Sequence record: PQ850627.1
Reading direction: 5' to 3' (one strand)
Length of the DNA stretch: 43,096 nt
Source: Escherichia phage SonjaBuckley_Bas74
Shown: positions 10,434 to 16,847 of the stretch, piece after piece
How positions within the stretch are numbered: the stretch's first letter is position 1
How the letters are laid out: each line of letters starts with the position of its first letter
Made by a program: the position numbers and the translations under genes
Notes under the pieces: model-generated
What the model saw: only the letters and a program-made list of their open reading frames with translations
The model's database searches: none
What the model was told of the DNA's origin: nothing

Positions 10434-10846
10434 TGGGCTACTTTGAGGACTTAACAAAAGCGTTTGATGTGCCGCTGGTAGCCTTCGGAACCACCAACGG
10501 CATCAAGGTAGCGCTTGAAAACATCGACGCGCCGACGTCAACAGATACGCCGTATCTGGCAAGTTACATGTTGCTGGCGGATACCGAGCAGGCTGACTTA
10601 TTCTTCACGGAACAACGCGCCGGTGTCTATCAGATAGACATTAACTACGCATCGGTGAAAGGTAGCGCGCCAATCAATAAAATGGCAGACTTACTTAACA
10701 CGGCGTTTAAAGCAGGTAAGTCATTTTCGCGTAACGACATCTGCGCCGAGGTTCAATCGGTTAGCCTGGGGCCGCTGATTGTAGAAAACGGATGGGCCAA
10801 ACGGCCATTGTCAATTAACTTTATAGCATTCACCAAGAGGCTGTGA
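10430..10846 (+). CDS. tail terminator / tail completion protein (putative)
   Basis: 138 aa; immediately upstream of major tail gene; positional call. Confidence 0.4.
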   Translation: MMGYFEDLTKAFDVPLVAFGTTNGIKVALENIDAPTSTDTPYLASYMLLADTEQADLFFTEQRAGVYQIDINYASVKGSAPINKMADLLNTAFKAGKSFSRNDICAEVQSVSLGPLIVENGWAKRPLSINFIAFTKRL

Positions 10847-10848
10847 AT

Positions 10849-12015
10849 ATGGCTACAACTCCTTTTAAGGGCGCGAATACCGCGCAATTCTATGTGGCGG
10901 AAGTGACCCCGGGTGTAACACCGACTAACCCGGTCTGGTCACCATTACGTAACACGGGCGGTGTTCCTGCCATTACCCGTGACACACTGACCTCCAACGA
11001 ACTCGACGGCAGCCGTGAAACTACATCCATCCGCACCGGTAACAAACAGGTTAGCGGTGAATACGCAATTGAGCTTAGCTCTAAAAGCCAGGATGACTGG
11101 CTAGCCGGGGCTTTAGGCTCTACGTGGCAGGCTGGCGTATCTCTGTCAGGGCTATCGATTACCGTCGCACCGGCTGGCAAGACGTTCACACGTGCCACCG
11201 GCAGCTTTATCACTGACGGAGTTGGGGTAGGCGACCTGATTGCGTTTACCGATTTAACTGGCGATAATGCAAAACCATTTATTGTTACTGCAGTAACGGC
11301 TACGGTTGTTACTGGTGCAGGCATCCAACACACCCTGACCACCGAGACAAAAACTAGTAAGGCTAAAACTGGCGACACGCTGGAAACCGGTAATACGTGT
11401 AAGACGTTCTCTATCCTTACCTGGTACAAAGGCCAGTGCGGCGGTACTGACGCGTACACGTTAACCAAAGGCGTGGAAGTTTCTGGTTTTACCATCGAAC
11501 AGGCTGTTAACGCGATGGTAACTGGCAGCTTCCCATTCATCGGTCGCAGTCAGGAGATTCTCACCACGCCGCCGACCGGTTCCAACTTCTCATCTGTTAC
11601 TTTTGGTGATGAGCCGTTTTCTTCGGTTGACGTTTCCGTGTTCGATGGCTCCACGCCGTTGCGTTGCGACAGCCTGACCATCACCAACGACAACAGCGCA
11701 TCCGCGCAGTTCGAACTCGGCAACACTAACGTAGCGTTTGTAGAACGTAGCCGCGCGGCTAACACCTTCTCCATCTCCGGCAAGCTGTATGACATGGCGA
11801 TGATTCAGAAGTTTATCAACGAGCAGCAGGTAGAGATTAACTCTATTCTGGCGGGGGTAAACGGGGCTATGTCTTTCAGTTTGAAACGTGCGGAGCTTAC
11901 GGCAGTTACCCCAGAGATTGGCGGACCTGAGTCAATCACTCAGTCCATTGAAGGCCAGGCTACTGGCAACCAGTACCAGTCGTCTATTGTTATTCAGCGT
12001 ATCACCTACGCATAA
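10849..12015 (+). CDS. major tail protein (putative)
   Basis: ATG at 10849 with AAGAGG SD (ORF track GTG start at 10843); 388 aa; followed by bidirectional terminator; position before chaperone and tape measure. Confidence 0.5.
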   Translation: MATTPFKGANTAQFYVAEVTPGVTPTNPVWSPLRNTGGVPAITRDTLTSNELDGSRETTSIRTGNKQVSGEYAIELSSKSQDDWLAGALGSTWQAGVSLSGLSITVAPAGKTFTRATGSFITDGVGVGDLIAFTDLTGDNAKPFIVTAVTATVVTGAGIQHTLTTETKTSKAKTGDTLETGNTCKTFSILTWYKGQCGGTDAYTLTKGVEVSGFTIEQAVNAMVTGSFPFIGRSQEILTTPPTGSNFSSVTFGDEPFSSVDVSVFDGSTPLRCDSLTITNDNSASAQFELGNTNVAFVERSRAANTFSISGKLYDMAMIQKFINEQQVEINSILAGVNGAMSFSLKRAELTAVTPEIGGPESITQSIEGQATGNQYQSSIVIQRITYA

Positions 12016-12019
12016 AACT

Positions 12020-12045
12020 AAGGCCCCGAAAGGGGCCTTTTTTAT
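12020..12045. terminator. bidirectional intrinsic terminator
   Basis: AAGGCCCC-GAAA-GGGGCCTT followed by TTTTTT; between convergent major tail gene and moron operon. Confidence 0.7.
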
Positions 12046-12275
12046 TACTCATCAATGTTACTCCTGTACTCCCGTAACTTTTCCAGACTTTCAATTGCTT
12101 CCGCTAAGTCGGTTCCGGTGTCCTTGTGTCCACGTAAACCCATGCACAATAGCTTCTTCAATGCGTGCTGTAACGCCGGGTCGCGGATGTCGAAAGCGCG
12201 GAGCACATCATAAACGTCTACTGTCATAGTGCTGCCGTGAGTATTTGTCATTGTGCGGTTGTATTTTGAAGTCAT
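12045..12275 (-). CDS. hypothetical protein (moron operon, 76 aa)
   Basis: Start overlaps stop of upstream gene (ATGA); ends at bidirectional terminator. Confidence 0.5.
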   Translation of the reverse strand: MTSKYNRTMTNTHGSTMTVDVYDVLRAFDIRDPALQHALKKLLCMGLRGHKDTGTDLAEAIESLEKLREYRSNIDE

Positions 12276-13402
12276 CCCAGCATCTCCGGTGAAATAGTTA
12301 AACGTGCGACCTCGCCATATTCGGCGCTATAAGTAATTACGTTTGCGCTACGCCCAGACATCCATCCGCCGCGCGAGGCGTAGGCGTCTTTCGCCGCTAA
12401 GGTGCGGTGTTGCTCAACAATCATGTTACGGCTTTCTACAATCTTCTGGTGGTGCAGATGGCCTACGTGGGCGTAGCTGTAAACACTCTCGCCGAACGCT
12501 TTACGGAACTTGGCAATCATAACCGGTTCGATAGCGTCGAATCGTGCTTTATGCCCGTGATGGAAGAACAGCGTCGTTTTGCCGTGTTGCACCATCTTAT
12601 AAACATCCGGCGACGTATCGACGAATACACGAGGCTCGTTGTCGTACAGTGTGCTGAACATCTCCGCCAGCCAAATCATTCCGCTTTCGTCGTGGTTCCC
12701 TTGCACTATAAGCAAGCGAACATTTTTATGCTTAACCAGTGCCATATCTACAACACGGCGCACCATACGAATCATGTAGCGAACAAGTTTTTGGTAGCGA
12801 GTGTCCGCGTCAAGGGCGTGACCGCTTGCTGGCGTAACGGCAACCAGACTATCGAAGTGCGCGAAGTCACCTAACAGGTTAATAACTCCAGTTCCTGCAT
12901 CCGGTGCTTTCTGAAACGCCGCGTCGAACCAGCGGGAGAACAGGTCTTCCGCAATCTTCATGTCCCAGTCGTCGCCGCTCTCGTCGGCCCAGGCCAGCAT
13001 ACCGAGATGAAAATCAGATACCGTGTAAAGATTGAGTAGCTTGCCGTCGCGTTTGGCGCGTGCTGCTTTAACAGGGGCGACTGGTGTAATCTCTGATTTC
13101 ATTCCTTCGATTACGGCTTTCATCAACTCGACCTGACGTTCGGCATCGGTGTCTGTCTTAACCCATTGCAACTTAGTGTTGCCGAACTCGTCCACAAGTG
13201 ACGACGTTCCTTTAATCTTGTAGCCATCTGGCACAAGGTGACTAACGTCACGTCCGTGGCCTACGCCTTTCTTAGCCAGCTTCGCTTTACGGATACGAAT
13301 AACGCGGTCTGAGATGCCGTATTTACGGGCGATGTCTACATTCTTCATCCCGGCGTTCAATTCTTCCTGTAACTGTTCGTCGGTTATTTTCTTCTGGGCC
13401 AT
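12272..13402 (-). CDS. metallophosphoesterase (calcineurin/Mre11-SbcD-like) with N-terminal HTH
   Basis: Motifs SDFHLG, LLGDFAHFD, VQGNHDE, FFHHGHKA, VGHLHH match the phosphoesterase motif series; N-terminal KNVDIARKYGISDRVIRIRKAKL is HTH-like; GAGGAAG SD. Confidence 0.65.
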   Translation of the reverse strand: MAQKKITDEQLQEELNAGMKNVDIARKYGISDRVIRIRKAKLAKKGVGHGRDVSHLVPDGYKIKGTSSLVDEFGNTKLQWVKTDTDAERQVELMKAVIEGMKSEITPVAPVKAARAKRDGKLLNLYTVSDFHLGMLAWADESGDDWDMKIAEDLFSRWFDAAFQKAPDAGTGVINLLGDFAHFDSLVAVTPASGHALDADTRYQKLVRYMIRMVRRVVDMALVKHKNVRLLIVQGNHDESGMIWLAEMFSTLYDNEPRVFVDTSPDVYKMVQHGKTTLFFHHGHKARFDAIEPVMIAKFRKAFGESVYSYAHVGHLHHQKIVESRNMIVEQHRTLAAKDAYASRGGWMSGRSANVITYSAEYGEVARLTISPEMLG

Positions 13403-13441
13403 GCTTTACTTCCTCGTGTTTAGGATTTGTCCTATACTAGC

Positions 13442-13633
13442 TCACTTCTCGTTAACATTCGAGTTGCAGGCCCAGATTAAAATAAATACCCACGGCAGCA
13501 GAACCCAACCAAGAAACAGATTAGCCATGAATATCGCTAATTTCGCTTTATGGTTGCGGAAGTATGCAACCAAGAAAGGTGCGAAATAGGCGAGCAGTGC
13601 AAACAGAATTAAGGAAACTGGTAAACTTGACAT
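13442..13633 (-). CDS. superinfection immunity-like small membrane protein
   Basis: Likely start at second ATG (AAGGGG SD); sequence YFAPFLVAYFRNHKAKLAIFMANLFLGWVLLPWVFILIWA resembles the Imm superinfection-immunity family pattern; two predicted TMDs. Confidence 0.55.
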   Translation of the reverse strand: MSSLPVSLILFALLAYFAPFLVAYFRNHKAKLAIFMANLFLGWVLLPWVFILIWACNSNVNEK

Positions 13634-13663
13634 TTTAAACCCCTTCATTGTTGGTGTAAGCGA

Positions 13664-13692
13664 ATAGTACCCTATTATATTGGGGTGTGCAA
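13664..13692 (-). promoter_or_regulatory. sigma70-type promoter TTGCAC-N17-TACTAT for Imm-phosphoesterase moron operon
   Basis: Identical 31-bp sequence to 5137-5167; located 16 nt upstream of ORF start at 13648. Confidence 0.55.
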
Positions 13693-13799
13693 GTAATGTG
13701 ATAGAATAATTTTGCGCCTAGTGTCGCACACGAAAAGCGGGTGGTTCCCGTCTGGCGCGTCAATCTTAACCTGTAACCTCTTAACCAAAGGATTAAAGA

Positions 13800-14216
13800 A
13801 TGAAACTTTCTGATTTTTATTTCGAAGAGAAAGCGCTGGTAGGCAAGAAGATGCCGATTCTCCTGCCGAATGGCGAAGACTCCGGTGAGTGGCTTAACGT
13901 TGTAAGCCCGGATGCGGATGCCGCCGTTAAAGCGGGGCGTGCTTTCATTATCGCGTACCGTCGCGGACTGGCGCGTTTCGAAGAACTGGAAAAAGCTGCC
14001 AAAGAATCCGGCGACTATACTGAATATAACCTGGCGGTTAACGAACTGGCCGAAGACCTCAACCGGCAACTTGCAGCAGAAGTAGTAAACGGCTGGAGCT
14101 TTGACGAGCCTTTCTCTAAGGAAGCGTTTAGTAAATTGCTCGACCAGTTCAAGGCATTAGGCACACAAGTAGCGGCGTTCCATAACGCCGAGCGCAAAGC
14201 ATTACAGGAAAAGTAG
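13800..14216 (+). CDS. tail assembly chaperone (gpG-like)
   Basis: 138 aa acidic ORF directly upstream of tape measure; -1 frame is open across its 3' end. Confidence 0.55.
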   Translation: MKLSDFYFEEKALVGKKMPILLPNGEDSGEWLNVVSPDADAAVKAGRAFIIAYRRGLARFEELEKAAKESGDYTEYNLAVNELAEDLNRQLAAEVVNGWSFDEPFSKEAFSKLLDQFKALGTQVAAFHNAERKALQEK

Positions 14217-14581
14217 ACGCGCTGTACAGGTTCGCCACCTACGAGTTCGTCGATAAGCATAAAATCAGAGAGTTTGATTCTATAGCTGACGGACACGAAC
14301 AGGCGCTTATCGCGATGGGTGTAATCGATAAGAAAAAACGTGCAGCGCGACGGGGTGGGCCAGAATGCCCGCCCCTTTTTATATCCACCTTTGAGACGTA
14401 TTGCGACATTAAGTTTACGCGACACGTGCGCGAGGACGCTGTAGTATTGTTTGCAAGAGAATCCGTTACGTGGCAAGACCTGAAAGCCTATCTCGATGTT
14501 ACGCAAAAACAGCTTAGCCTGTTCGAGATAGACATTATCATGGGCTTAGAAGCAATCTTTGAAGGTAGAAATCATGGCTGA
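14186..14581 (+). CDS. tail assembly chaperone -1 frameshift extension (gpGT-like, putative)
   Basis: -1 frame open from 14186 to 14581, overlapping the last 10 codons of the chaperone; GGAAAAG immediately before the TAG stop; ends just inside tape measure start. Confidence 0.4.
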   Translation, partial: RRAQSITGKVDALYRFATYEFVDKHKIREFDSIADGHEQALIAMGVIDKKKRAARRGGPECPPLFISTFETYCDIKFTRHVREDAVVLFARESVTWQDLKAYLDVTQKQLSLFEIDIIMGLEAIFEGRNHG

Positions 14582-16847
14582 TACCGCTAGCTTGATAGTA
14601 CGAGTATCATCGACCGGCGTCGATAAAACCACATCACAACTGAATGGTCTAACCAAAGCCGCGGGGGCTGCTGCCGCTGCTGTTGTTAGCCTGGAAACCG
14701 CTAAGCAGGTGTTCAGTGCGCTGGTGGCCTCTCAGCGCAACTTCGATAAGCTGAACTCAGGCCTCATCACAATGACCGGGAGTGCTGAGAACGCGGCTAA
14801 GGCTTTCAGCGTCCTGCAACAGTTCGCAAAAGAAACCCCGTATGGTCTTAACCAGGCGGTGGAAGGCTTTACTAAACTTGTAGCCCTCGGCCTGAACCCC
14901 AGCAAAGAAGCGTTAATCTCCTACGGCAACACCGCCGCTGCGATGGGTAAAGACCTTAATCAGATGATTGAGGCTGTGGCGGACGCCAGTACCTTTGAGT
15001 TTGAGCGCTTAAAAGAGTTCGGTATCAAGTCCTCCCAACAGGCGGATACAGTTTCGTTTACGTTCCGCGGCGTAACGACCACGGTTAAAAAGAACTCCGA
15101 AGAGATTCAGAAATACCTTCTGAGCATCGGCAACACCGATTTCGCCGGGGCGATGGAGACGCGCTCGAAGACCTTAGACGGTCAGTTGTCTAGCCTCGCC
15201 GACTCCTTCGATGGTCTTGTACTTGCGGTGGCGCAGTCTGGTTTTGGAGACGCGGTAGGTGAACAAGCGGCAACAGCGGAAGATGCTATTACTGCACTCA
15301 CCGACGCTATCGCGTCTAATGAGATAGCCGCCACGCTCCAGGATTGGGTGACACTGTTCAATGAGTCGTTCAAGTTTATTTCTGATGCCCTGAATGACCT
15401 GGCATTTGACACCGAGGACAAATCCGCTGATATGTCCGACTCGCTGGGCACTATACCAGACGCTATCCGTGAGTGGCTGCCTGACATTCAGCAGACGTTC
15501 CACGAGGTTATTGCATGGTTCCAGCGCATTGACGATTACGCCGTAGCGTTAGGTCAGACCCTTGCCGACGTGTTTGACCCGAGCAAAACGGCAGCGCTCA
15601 CATTTAAAAACCTGACCGCAGAGGCCGACGCCGCATACGCCGCCAGTATAAAACGTGCGGAGGCTGAATCGCAGGCCATTACAGACAGGTCTAAGCAGCG
15701 TAAGAAAGAAATTGAGGAACAGCGCAAGCAGTACGACGAGCGCAAGAAGCAAGAAATTGACTTAGCCAGCCTTGTTAATAAAAAGGGTGGAACTGGTGGC
15801 ACCGGAAACGCTGACGATAAAGCGACAAAAGCGGCTGCCAAGAAAGCAGAACAATTGCGGAATCAGGCGCAAGATTACCTCGACACTTTGGCCCGCCAGA
15901 ACAACGATGAGTTAAAGGCTATCGACGCGCAGGAACAGCAGAAACTGGCTAAGGCAAAAGAGTTCTACAGCCAGGGCGCGCTGTCGCTGAAAGAATACGA
16001 GCAAGCAAAAACGGCTATTGTCCTTGAAGCAGGGCAAAAACGCCAAGATGAACTGGATAAACGTCAGAAAGAAGCCCTGGAAAAGCAGCAGAAAGGTGAC
16101 GACTTCATGTCTCAGATTATGGGCCAGAACGCCACTGAGCTTGAGCTTCTCGATATCCAGGAACAGCAGAAACTGGCTGTCGCAGATAAGTACCGCGAAC
16201 AGGGTCTGATTAGCGAGAAGCAGTACCAGGCCGCGCTTAACGCCATCAACGAGCAGTACGCCACGAAACGCGCCGACGCAACGGCAACCGCCTTTGGTAA
16301 CATGGCCTCAAACATCGGTTCGGCTTTGGGCGAGGCTTCTGGCGCGTATAAGGCATTCGCTATCGTACAGGCCACTATAGCCACATACACCGCAGCTATT
16401 GAGGCGTACAAGTCCACGGCTGCTATCCCTGTAGTTGGCCCGTTCCTGGCCCCTGTAGCCGCTGCCGCAGCCGTTGGGGCGGGTATGGCGCAGATTTCCG
16501 CTATCAGGTCCGCGCGTGAACAGGGCGGTCAGTTATCCGCGGGGCAGGCTTCTACTATCGCCGAACGCGGTAAACCTGAGGTAATTATGCCGGCGGGGGC
16601 GTCGCGAGTACGCACCGCGCAACAAATGAAAGAGATTATGGGCCAAAACGGGTCTTCTTCCGGCCCATCTAATGTTACTATCGTAAACAACACGAGTTCG
16701 CAAATCGGCAACGTATCTACTGAACAGGATGATGAAGGGCGTCTGCGCATCATCATCGAGGAGCAGGTAGCTGCCTCTTTGCAGAACAGTAATAGTAAGA
16801 TTAGCAAGGCCCGCAAGGCCACAAGAAACGCGCCGGGGTTTAAATAA
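14559..16847 (+). CDS. tail tape measure protein
   Basis: 762 aa, largest ORF in tail block; alanine- and coiled-coil-rich; glycine/alanine-rich hydrophobic C-terminal segment; alternative ATG at 14574 with AAGGTAG SD. Confidence 0.8.
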   Translation: MKVEIMADTASLIVRVSSTGVDKTTSQLNGLTKAAGAAAAAVVSLETAKQVFSALVASQRNFDKLNSGLITMTGSAENAAKAFSVLQQFAKETPYGLNQAVEGFTKLVALGLNPSKEALISYGNTAAAMGKDLNQMIEAVADASTFEFERLKEFGIKSSQQADTVSFTFRGVTTTVKKNSEEIQKYLLSIGNTDFAGAMETRSKTLDGQLSSLADSFDGLVLAVAQSGFGDAVGEQAATAEDAITALTDAIASNEIAATLQDWVTLFNESFKFISDALNDLAFDTEDKSADMSDSLGTIPDAIREWLPDIQQTFHEVIAWFQRIDDYAVALGQTLADVFDPSKTAALTFKNLTAEADAAYAASIKRAEAESQAITDRSKQRKKEIEEQRKQYDERKKQEIDLASLVNKKGGTGGTGNADDKATKAAAKKAEQLRNQAQDYLDTLARQNNDELKAIDAQEQQKLAKAKEFYSQGALSLKEYEQAKTAIVLEAGQKRQDELDKRQKEALEKQQKGDDFMSQIMGQNATELELLDIQEQQKLAVADKYREQGLISEKQYQAALNAINEQYATKRADATATAFGNMASNIGSALGEASGAYKAFAIVQATIATYTAAIEAYKSTAAIPVVGPFLAPVAAAAAVGAGMAQISAIRSAREQGGQLSAGQASTIAERGKPEVIMPAGASRVRTAQQMKEIMGQNGSSSGPSNVTIVNNTSSQIGNVSTEQDDEGRLRIIIEEQVAASLQNSNSKISKARKATRNAPGFK

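What the first reader, a model, noticed from the sequence alone, without database searches (positions are those of the whole stretch)
14186..14216. Probable programmed -1 frameshift producing a gpG/gpGT-like tail chaperone pair
The -1 frame is open from 14186, overlapping the last 10 codons of the chaperone ORF, and continues 131 codons to just inside the tape measure start. The sequence GGAAAAG lies immediately before the zero-frame TAG, so an A-site AAG to AAA slip next to a stop codon is possible. The heptamer is non-canonical, so the exact slip site is uncertain.
Basis: partly seen in the sequence, partly recalled or inferred. Interest (0 to 1): 0.45.

Follow-up and report, generated by a model that had tools for sequence, protein, structure and literature searches.

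The report
Tail chaperone frameshift, already annotated
This is the usual phage trick of making a short and a long tail-assembly chaperone from one gene by a ribosome slipping back one base; it is real as far as sequence comparison can show, but it is already annotated in near-identical phages and is ordinary.

Summary
The window is a Kagunavirus (K1G-like coliphage), 95-97% identical to published genomes. The chaperone ORF is 13800-14216 and ends GAA AAG TAG. The -1 frame is open 14186-14581 and ends 8 nt inside the tape measure gene (ATG 14574).

- **Coding.** The -1 frame is under purifying selection from the first codon after the slip: 25 of 29 variable sites are third positions, and 9 of 10 in the stretch before the first ATG.
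- **No own start.** There is no ATG/GTG/TTG for 34 codons. The Met at 14315 is Ile or Gln in two lineages.
- **Conserved signal.** Across 19 lineages with about 40-60% protein identity, the only invariant nucleotides at the junction are A_AAG_T. The codon before it encodes Glu, Gly, Ser or Ala and always ends in A. A stop follows directly in 17 of 19.
- **No stimulator.** No conserved RNA structure or suitably spaced SD-like element was found.

The most likely mechanism is a tRNA-Lys slip from AAG to AAA at 14210-14213, giving a 260-aa fusion. RefSeq already annotates this joined CDS in K1ind2, and GenBank or RefSeq records do so for fKuEco01, fFiEco02 and Shemara. Other records call two separate genes. 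Nothing here is experimentally verified. Low interest.

The parts
13800..14216 (+). gpG-like tail assembly chaperone ORF (138 aa, stop TAG 14214-14216)
   Evidence: ORF list. Pfam PF08748 Phage_TAC_4, 26.7 bits against a cut-off of 21.1. phrog_15027 tail assembly chaperone, E 2e-71, profile positions 1-138. Annotated as tail assembly chaperone in relatives.
14207..14213 (+). Heptamer G_GAA_AAG. It is non-canonical: P-site re-pairing of GAA to GGA would need a middle G.U pair.
   Evidence: Sequence. One close relative (L018) has the canonical G_GGA_AAG. Other lineages have G_TCA_AAG, G_GCA_AAG or C_GCA_AAG.
14210..14213 (+). A_AAG, the proposed slip site. tRNA-Lys moves from AAG (14211-13) to AAA (14210-12), and the next codon read is GTA (14213-15).
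   Evidence: Invariant in all 37 loci, together with the following T. In some close relatives the -1 frame opens only 16 nt before the stop, which confines the slip to the last 5 codons. A_AAG is the most efficient Z_ZZN tetramer in E. coli (PMC4066793).
14214..14216 (+). Zero-frame stop TAG directly 3' of the slip codon, a possible pause element ('shifty stop')
   Evidence: TAG or TAA follows AAG directly in 17 of 19 lineage representatives. In L020 and L036 one Leu codon (TTA, TTG) intervenes.
14213..14581 (+). T part: 122 codons read in the -1 frame after the slip (VDALYRF...EGRNHG), stop TGA 14579-14581. The -1 frame itself is open from 14186.
   Evidence: Translation. Pfam PF23812 Phage_TAC_18, 67.7 bits against a cut-off of 27. 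phrog_15027 profile positions 134-259. 25 of 29 variable sites are third codon positions. Gap-free alignment from residue 1 in all lineages.
14315..14317 (+). First ATG in the -1 frame. Gene callers use it to call an 88-aa ORF. It is not a conserved start.
   Evidence: ORF list. The Met is replaced by Ile (Shemara) and Gln (L020). The only upstream SD-like element is an AGG 11 nt away (sequence).
14574..16847 (+). Tape measure protein gene. Its ATG overlaps the end of T (ATGGCTGA).
   Evidence: phrog_1538, E 6e-195. PF20155 TMP_3, 38.1 bits, which is below the 41-bit cut-off. The overlap sequence is invariant in all 13 lineages checked.
10843..12015 (+). Tail tube protein gene, the expected binding partner of the T domain by analogy with lambda
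   Evidence: PF18906 Phage_tube_2, 128 bits. phrog_290, tail.

Best explanation
A programmed -1 ribosomal frameshift at the last sense codon of the tail assembly chaperone gene. Most ribosomes terminate at TAG 14214 and make the 138-aa G-like chaperone.

A minority slip back one base on A_AAG (14210-14213). The single host tRNA-Lys (anticodon mnm5s2UUU) leaves AAG and re-pairs with AAA. The ribosome then reads GTA GAC GCG CTG... and makes a 260-aa G-T fusion (13800-14213 joined to 14213-14581). The fusion ends 8 nt inside the tape measure gene.

The slip is most likely a single-tRNA event, aided by the slowly decoded stop codon directly 3' of the slip codon, rather than a classical two-tRNA heptamer slip. 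By analogy with lambda gpG/gpGT, the shared G part would bind the tape measure protein. The T part would recruit the tail tube protein (10843-12015).

Shown: ORF geometry, coding constraint, absence of a conserved start, nucleotide-level conservation of A_AAG, and family membership of both halves. Inferred: that the slip occurs, its efficiency, whether the tRNA slips in the P or the A site, the contribution of the stop codon, and the protein functions.
For: 1. **Geometry.** The -1 frame is open 14186-14581, overlaps the G 3' end, and abuts the tape measure gene.
2. **Coding constraint.** The T frame evolves as coding sequence right from the junction. Among 19 close relatives, 25 of 29 variable sites are third positions, and 9 of 10 in the part before the ATG. 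There are only 4 distinct proteins among 19 distinct DNA sequences.
3. **Alignment to the junction.** tblastn matches in 491 of 493 phage records cover at least 80% of the T part, and in nearly all of the 60 rows listed the match starts at residue 1 or 2. T proteins at 40-55% identity align gap-free from Val1.
4. **No start codon.** There is no ATG/GTG/TTG between 14186 and 14315. The Leu codon that some annotators used as a start is CTG in the window and most lineages, and TTG only in 5 of the 19 representatives (the SE2/SP-101/Golestan/Snoke group and Logan L035). Met 14315 is not conserved.
5. **Invariant A_AAG_T.** It is invariant in 37 loci. The preceding residue is E, G, S or A, always with the A-ending codon, and Lys is always AAG.
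6. **Short overlap.** The overlap can be as short as 16 nt.
7. **Family membership.** Both halves hit chaperone families above Pfam cut-offs. phrog_15027, a 259-position profile, matches both halves, G at positions 1-138 and T at 134-259.
8. **Existing annotation.** The joined CDS is annotated in K1ind2 (RefSeq), fKuEco01, fFiEco02 and Shemara.
9. **Known precedent.** A_AAG is the best tetramer for -1 frameshifting in E. coli (PMC4066793). NNA_AAG sites are used by IS1222 and occur in B. subtilis cdd. E. coli has one tRNA-Lys for both AAA and AAG (PMC5009743). The phage carries no tRNA gene.
Against: - There is no protein-level or reporter evidence for this phage group in anything I could search.
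- The heptamer is non-canonical. One genome announcement for a related phage explicitly states there is no canonical slippery sequence (PMC6776780).
- In reporter assays, tetramers without a stimulator were barely above background, 0.147% against 0.112% (PMC4066793).
- I found no conserved downstream RNA structure. The single-sequence fold has z = -0.32, and the consensus fold has 3 pairs and no covariation. No SD-like element lies at the known stimulatory distance.
- Two lineages (L020, L036) have a Leu codon between AAG and the stop, so stop adjacency is not strictly conserved.
- Many records annotate T as a separate gene.
Confidence: 0.85

Rival explanations
1. No frameshift. The downstream ORF is a separate gene translated from its own start. 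The start would be either ATG 14315 (88 aa), or a near-cognate or TTG start at the conserved Leu codon (14222), coupled to termination at TAG 14214, with AGGA (14206-14209) acting as a Shine-Dalgarno element.
For: Many deposited records annotate it this way: DUEC01, Golestan, SP-101, SE2, Eta, Jersey, ZCSE9, Snoke and Tsm2. In the SE2/Golestan/Snoke group the Leu codon is TTG, and AGGA lies about 12 nt upstream. Automatic gene calls on metagenome contigs give an 87-88 aa PF23812 protein from the ATG.
Against: - The window and 13 of the other 18 lineage representatives have CTG, not TTG, at that codon.
- The AGGA is absent in Eta (TCGTCAAAG), Tsm2, L020 and L036-L038.
- The GTG used in DUEC01 is GTC or GTT in the window and other close relatives.
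- Met 14315 is Ile or Gln in two lineages, and the 34 upstream codons are under purifying selection.
- This model does not explain why four different amino acids before the Lys all use the A-ending codon, or why Lys is always AAG.
Confidence: 0.08
2. The fusion is made by transcriptional slippage. RNA polymerase would add or drop an A in the A-run, rather than the ribosome slipping.
For: A short A-run (AAAA, 14209-14212) lies at the junction.
Against: The run is only 4 A, and 3 A in relative L018 (GGGAAAG) and in the TCAAAG and GCAAAG lineages. From established knowledge, productive transcriptional slippage needs runs of roughly 7 or more identical bases. The invariant G and T after the As fit a codon-anticodon constraint, not a homopolymer.
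Confidence: 0.02
3. The frameshift occurs, but as a classical two-tRNA slip on the heptamer G_GAA_AAG. tRNA-Glu would re-pair on GGA through a middle G.U pair, and the stop codon would play no role.
For: In the sequenced relatives the heptamer begins with G in 16 of 19 lineages, and GAA is the commonest P-site codon. One relative has the fully canonical G_GGA_AAG used by lambda. The product would be identical. Stop adjacency is lost in L020 and L036.
Against: The P-site codons TCA and GCA, preceded by G or C, allow little or no re-pairing in the -1 frame, yet those lineages keep the same architecture.
Confidence: 0.3

Closest known systems
Annotated tail assembly chaperone pair ORF21A/ORF21B of Escherichia phage K1ind2 (NC_041898; also fKuEco01, fFiEco02, Shemara)
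   Same: Same genus, with 95.7% nucleotide identity over this kilobase. The ORF lengths are the same (417 nt short form, 782-nt joined form). The junction sequence CAGGAAAAGTAGACGCGCTG is identical, and so is the overlap with the tape measure start.
   Different: Nothing material. The window's G protein differs by 3 residues (97.8% identity). That annotation is itself a prediction, and other records of the same genus annotate two separate genes.
Bacteriophage lambda gpG/gpGT (Levin, Hendrix & Casjens 1993; Xu, Hendrix & Duda 2004, as cited in PMC5009743)
   Same: [quoted passage not shown] The A-site codon is the same (A_AAG). No strong RNA stimulator is evident here, and from my own recall of the lambda work none is needed there either.
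   Different: Lambda uses the canonical G_GGA_AAG. Here the heptamer is G_GAA_AAG and only A_AAG is conserved. The slip codon here is the last sense codon, directly followed by the stop. There is no detectable sequence similarity to lambda G or T; the families are PF08748 and PF23812. Three reverse-strand genes separate the tube gene from the chaperone gene.
Tetra- and hexanucleotide -1 frameshift sites NNA_AAG: IS1222 (G_CGA_AAG) and Bacillus subtilis cdd (A_CGA_AAG)
   Same: The slip depends on tRNA-Lys moving from AAG to AAA, with a P-site codon that cannot re-pair well (PMC5009743). A_AAG is the most shift-prone tetramer in E. coli (PMC4066793).
   Different: From my own recall, not checked in a paper here, those sites have identified stimulators: an upstream SD-like sequence for cdd and downstream structure for IS elements. 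Neither was found here. The only conserved neighbour is the stop codon, or at least its first base T.
E. coli dnaX (A_AAA_AAG)
   Same: Same host translation machinery and the same A-site codon and tRNA (PMC5009743).
   Different: From my own recall, dnaX has a perfect heptamer, an SD-like stimulator upstream and a stem-loop downstream, and shifts at about 50%. None of these features is present here.

Membership tests
gpG/gpGT-type tail assembly chaperone pair made by -1 frameshift (Xu, Hendrix & Duda 2004) | Two ORFs located between the tail tube gene and the tape measure gene, immediately upstream of the latter | tested here: met
   G 13800-14216, T frame to 14581, tape measure ATG 14574. 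Tube protein 10843-12015 (PF18906). Caveat: three reverse-strand genes (12045-13648) sit between the tube gene and G.
gpG/gpGT-type tail assembly chaperone pair made by -1 frameshift (Xu, Hendrix & Duda 2004) | Second ORF in the -1 frame, overlapping the 3' end of the first and lacking a conserved start of its own | tested here: met
   The -1 frame is open from 14186, and the first ATG/GTG/TTG is at 14315. The region before the ATG is conserved and under purifying selection. Candidate starts are not conserved.
gpG/gpGT-type tail assembly chaperone pair made by -1 frameshift (Xu, Hendrix & Duda 2004) | Canonical X_XXY_YYZ slippery heptamer in the overlap | tested here: not met
   The window has G_GAA_AAG. 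Only one relative (L018) has G_GGA_AAG, and others have G_TCA_AAG or G/C_GCA_AAG. The tetramer A_AAG is present and invariant.
gpG/gpGT-type tail assembly chaperone pair made by -1 frameshift (Xu, Hendrix & Duda 2004) | Sequence membership of the two halves in tail assembly chaperone families | tested here: met
   PF08748, 26.7 bits (cut-off 21.1), and PF23812, 67.7 bits (cut-off 27). phrog_15027 covers both halves.
gpG/gpGT-type tail assembly chaperone pair made by -1 frameshift (Xu, Hendrix & Duda 2004) | Chaperone fold of the G part | tested here: inconclusive
   The AlphaFold model from a 7-sequence alignment had pLDDT 65 and pTM 0.41. Foldseek against the PDB gave no match with E below 1. 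phmmer against PDB sequences found nothing.
gpG/gpGT-type tail assembly chaperone pair made by -1 frameshift (Xu, Hendrix & Duda 2004) | A fusion protein is made at a low fixed ratio and is needed for tail assembly, but is absent from virions | not testable with these tools
   This needs western blot or mass spectrometry of infected cells, and genetics.
Z_ZZN tetranucleotide / NNA_AAG -1 frameshift sites | In-frame A_AAG inside the window allowed by the two frames | tested here: met
   14210-14213. It is the only in-frame A_AAG in G, and it lies within the 16-nt minimal overlap.
Z_ZZN tetranucleotide / NNA_AAG -1 frameshift sites | A stimulatory element: an SD-like sequence 10-14 nt upstream, or a hairpin or pseudoknot 5-9 nt downstream | tested here: not met
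   Fold of 14207-14330 gave z = -0.32. The consensus fold of 9 lineages had 3 invariant pairs, -0.96 kcal/mol and no covariation. The only SD-like AGGA abuts the slip site and is not conserved. The nearest strong hairpin (14352-14375) is 139 nt downstream.
Z_ZZN tetranucleotide / NNA_AAG -1 frameshift sites | Host decodes AAA and AAG with a single tRNA-Lys (UUU anticodon) | not testable with these tools
   The host of the window is not given. Relatives at 95-97% identity infect E. coli, which has one tRNA-Lys (PMC5009743). The phage itself has no tRNA gene.

The most novel reading that the evidence does not exclude
Across the whole Guernseyvirinae-like group, the programmed signal may be a minimal one: a bare A_AAG tetranucleotide placed as the last sense codon (or last but one), with the adjacent stop codon acting as the only stimulator. 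This would be a P-site 'shifty stop' slip with no heptamer and no RNA structure. The natural series of preceding codons (GAA, GGA, TCA, GCA) would then tune the G:GT ratio. That would be a distinct and experimentally convenient variant of tail-chaperone frameshifting.
Probability: 0.4. Interest if true: 0.35.

Novelty: already known. Interest (0 to 1): 0.2.

Why it matters
For this window it matters mainly for correct annotation. The 88-aa 'hypothetical protein' that gene callers report from ATG 14315 is most likely the C-terminal half of a 260-aa frameshift product.

More broadly, records of this phage subfamily disagree: some have a joined CDS, others two genes with TTG, CTG or GTG starts, and one paper states there is no slippery sequence. 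The comparison made here gives a single consistent rule (invariant A_AAG_T at the end of G) that could harmonise them. It also offers a natural test set for how a tetranucleotide plus a neighbouring stop codon sets a low frameshift ratio. It does not open a new question.

Tried and rejected
- **Downstream RNA stimulator.** The single-sequence fold of 14207-14330 was no better than shuffles. The consensus fold of nine lineages gave three invariant pairs only. Rejected.
- **Upstream SD-like stimulator.** Only AGGA directly abutting the slip site was found. That is the wrong spacing, and it is absent in several lineages. Rejected.
- **Internal promoter for separate T expression.** No plus-strand promoter-like site lies in 13400-14700.
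- **Phage-encoded tRNA that might alter Lys decoding.** None found.
- **Solved-structure relatives of G or T by sequence.** None credible.
- **Structure prediction of G and fold search.** The model was low confidence and the matches were meaningless.
- **Protein database search with the predicted 260-aa fusion.** The aim was to find annotated fusions and their junction. It returned only 7 hits, all G-length proteins. These were still useful as entry points to six more loci.
- **Literature.** I found no experimental demonstration for Kagunavirus or Jerseyvirus. The Jerseyvirinae paper cited in the Snoke record (PMID 25663216) is not held.
- **Chance open frame.** Rejected on the codon-position pattern.
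- **Transcriptional slippage.** Rejected because the A-run is 3-4 bases.

Full report
**What the window is.** A 1-kb query around the finding matches 116 phage records, all K1G-like coliphages of the genus Kagunavirus (Guernseyvirinae). The best is Escherichia phage DUEC01 at 97.2%, followed by K1ind2, K1ind3 and K1G at about 95-96%. The local gene order is as follows.
- Tail tube protein, 10843-12015: PF18906 at 128 bits and phrog_290.
- Three reverse-strand genes, 12045-13648. One is a metallophosphoesterase or DNA repair exonuclease (phrog_704). Another is a superinfection immunity protein (PF14373).
- The chaperone ORF, 13800-14216.
- The tape measure gene, from ATG 14574 to 16847 (phrog_1538, E 6e-195).

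**The observation.** It is correct in every detail.
- The zero frame ends CAG GAA AAG TAG, with the stop at 14214-14216.
- The -1 frame has TAA at 14183-14185 and is open from 14186 to TGA 14579-14581, which is 131 codons.
- Its last 8 nt overlap the tape measure start (ATGGCTGA).
- GGAAAAG occupies 14207-14213.
- The first ATG, GTG or TTG in the -1 frame is the ATG at 14315.

**Is the -1 frame a real coding sequence, and from where?** Several lines of evidence say it codes from the junction onward.
- Among 19 close relatives there are 19 different DNA sequences of the 369-nt T region but only 4 different proteins.
- 25 of 29 variable sites are third positions of the -1 frame. In the stretch from the junction to the ATG at 14315 the count is 9 of 10.
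- A tblastn search with the T part finds 493 phage records, 491 of which cover at least 80% of the query. In nearly all of the 60 rows listed the match starts at query residue 1 or 2, that is, right after the G stop.
- T-part proteins from 13 lineages at 40-55% identity align without a gap from the first residue, with the pattern V-x-A-L-(Y/F/L)-x-(F/Y)-A. The 34 residues before the Met are as conserved as the rest.
- That Met is Ile in Shemara and Gln in IMG/VR locus L020.

The coding sequence therefore begins where the G frame ends, and nothing there can serve as a conserved initiation codon. The conserved Leu codon that several annotators used as a start (6 nt after the stop) is CTG in the window and in most lineages. 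It is TTG in only 5 of the 19 representatives: the SE2/SP-101/Golestan/Snoke group and Logan L035. The GTG used in DUEC01 is GTC in the window and GTT in other close relatives.

**Where is the slip?** In some close relatives a synonymous change (CGC to CGT) creates TAA in the -1 frame only 16 nt before the G stop. The shift must therefore occur within the last five codons.

I compared 19 lineage representatives:
- the window;
- a K1-like variant;
- Golestan, Snoke, SE2 and SP-101;
- fFiEco02;
- Jersey and ZCSE9;
- Shemara;
- Serratia phages Eta and Tsm2;
- an IMG/VR contig;
- four contigs from Logan assemblies;
- two NCBI metagenome contigs.

Within 30 nt upstream of the G end, the only invariant nucleotides are A_AAG and one second-position T of a Leu codon. 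Downstream there is the T that follows AAG and the Ala-Leu codons GCG-NTG. The codon before AAG is GAA in 12, GGA in 1, TCA in 1 and GCA in 5. That is four different amino acids, each using its A-ending codon, and Lys is always AAG. This is selection on the nucleotides A_AAG, not on the protein. The base before that codon is G or C, so P-site re-pairing is not conserved. A stop (TAG or TAA) follows AAG directly in 17 of 19. In L020 and L036 one Leu codon (TTA, TTG) intervenes, and the -1 reading still gives V-x-A-L-Y in register.

**Stimulators.** None was found.
- The 124 nt from the slip site fold no better than shuffled sequence, z = -0.32.
- The consensus fold of nine lineages gives three invariant pairs, -0.96 kcal/mol and no covariation.
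- The only SD-like element (AGGA, 14206-14209) abuts the slip site. It is missing in the Eta, Tsm2 and GCA-type lineages.
- The phage has no tRNA genes.

**Mechanism.** The best-supported reading is a -1 slip of tRNA-Lys from AAG to AAA at 14210-14213, followed by decoding of GTA. This yields a 260-aa fusion, 138 aa of G plus 122 aa of T.

It matches established knowledge. E. coli has one tRNA-Lys for AAA and AAG, and A_AAG is markedly shift-prone (PMC5009743). A_AAG is the most efficient of the 16 tetramers in E. coli, but it is weak without a stimulator (PMC4066793). NNA_AAG sites with poor P-site re-pairing occur in IS1222 and B. subtilis cdd (PMC5009743).

The near-universal stop codon directly after AAG suggests a 'shifty stop' contribution: tRNA-Lys in the P site, with a slow A site. 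This is inference, and the two lineages with an intervening Leu codon argue that it is not obligatory. A dual-tRNA slip on G_GAA_AAG, with a middle G.U pair for tRNA-Glu on GGA, would give the same protein. It cannot be excluded for the window itself. One close relative (L018) even carries the canonical lambda heptamer G_GGA_AAG.

**Function.** This is by analogy only. G carries PF08748 (Phage_TAC_4) and T carries PF23812 (Phage_TAC_18), both above the curated cut-offs. phrog_15027, a 259-position tail assembly chaperone profile, matches both halves: G at positions 1-138 and T at 134-259. In lambda, G and the G part of GT bind the tape measure protein, and the T part binds the tube protein (PMC5009743). 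Structure-based confirmation failed: the model had pLDDT 65 and there were no credible PDB matches.

**Comparison with what is known.**
- The RefSeq record of K1ind2 already carries ORF21A (417 nt) and a joined ORF21B (782 nt span), both named tail assembly chaperone. Joined CDSs are also annotated in fKuEco01, fFiEco02 and Shemara. The junction sequence in K1ind2 is identical to the window's. The feature is therefore already known as an annotation.
- Many other records give two separate genes.
- The Shashou genome announcement states that there is no canonical slippery sequence between chaperone and tape measure (PMC6776780).
- I found no experimental test in the searchable literature.
- The small addition here is the subfamily-wide rule: invariant A_AAG_T, a variable P-site codon, and no RNA structure.

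**Verdict.** Novelty is already known, and interest is low (0.2). The most novel reading not excluded is a minimal tetranucleotide-plus-stop signal used throughout the subfamily (probability about 0.4, modest interest).

Noticed in passing
window 14352-14385 (+): A strong terminator-like hairpin lies inside the T coding region: GGGGTGGGCC-AGAATG-CCCGCCCC followed by TTTTTATATC (9 pairs, 8 G-C, -20.6 kcal/mol). Its core follows from the conserved GPECP codons. The extended stem and a T-run recur in fFiEco02, Serratia Tsm2 and Eta, and L020, but not in SE2, Golestan or Jersey. The stem variants in close relatives keep pairing: T.G to C-G, T.G to T-A, and G-C to G.T. It is 139 nt from the slip site, so it is not a frameshift stimulator. 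It could be an attenuator ahead of the tape measure gene.
   Followed up: partly
window 12045-13648 (-): Three reverse-strand genes are inserted between the tail tube gene and the chaperone gene. They are a 76-aa ORF, a 376-aa metallophosphoesterase or DNA repair exonuclease (phrog_704), and a 68-aa superinfection immunity protein (PF14373). This interrupts the usual tube-G-T-tape measure order. Relatives have the same layout.
   Followed up: partly
window 14219-14224: The Ala codon two codons after the slip is GCG in all 19 lineage representatives, and the next codon is always NTG (Leu). The lineages otherwise differ at about half their residues. It may simply be codon preference and shared ancestry. 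No pairing partner or function was found.
   Followed up: no
window 14574-14581: The overlap of the T stop and the tape measure start, ATGGCTGA, is identical in all 13 lineages checked. The ORF lister starts the tape measure ORF at TTG 14559, but relatives annotate the ATG.
   Followed up: partly
L020:1486-1501 and L036:1624-1638: Two diverged lineages have one extra zero-frame Leu codon between A_AAG and the stop (AAG TTA TAG and AAG TTG TAG), and the -1 reading stays in register. They are natural variants for testing whether stop adjacency matters.
   Followed up: partly
relatives L001, L022-L025, L027, L028, L030, L031: Public records disagree on this locus. Some give a joined frameshift CDS. 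Others give a separate CDS starting at TTG, CTG (Jersey, Eta) or GTG (DUEC01), or at the internal ATG (Tsm2, ZCSE9-like). Automatic calls on metagenome contigs give an 87-88 aa protein or nothing.
   Followed up: yes
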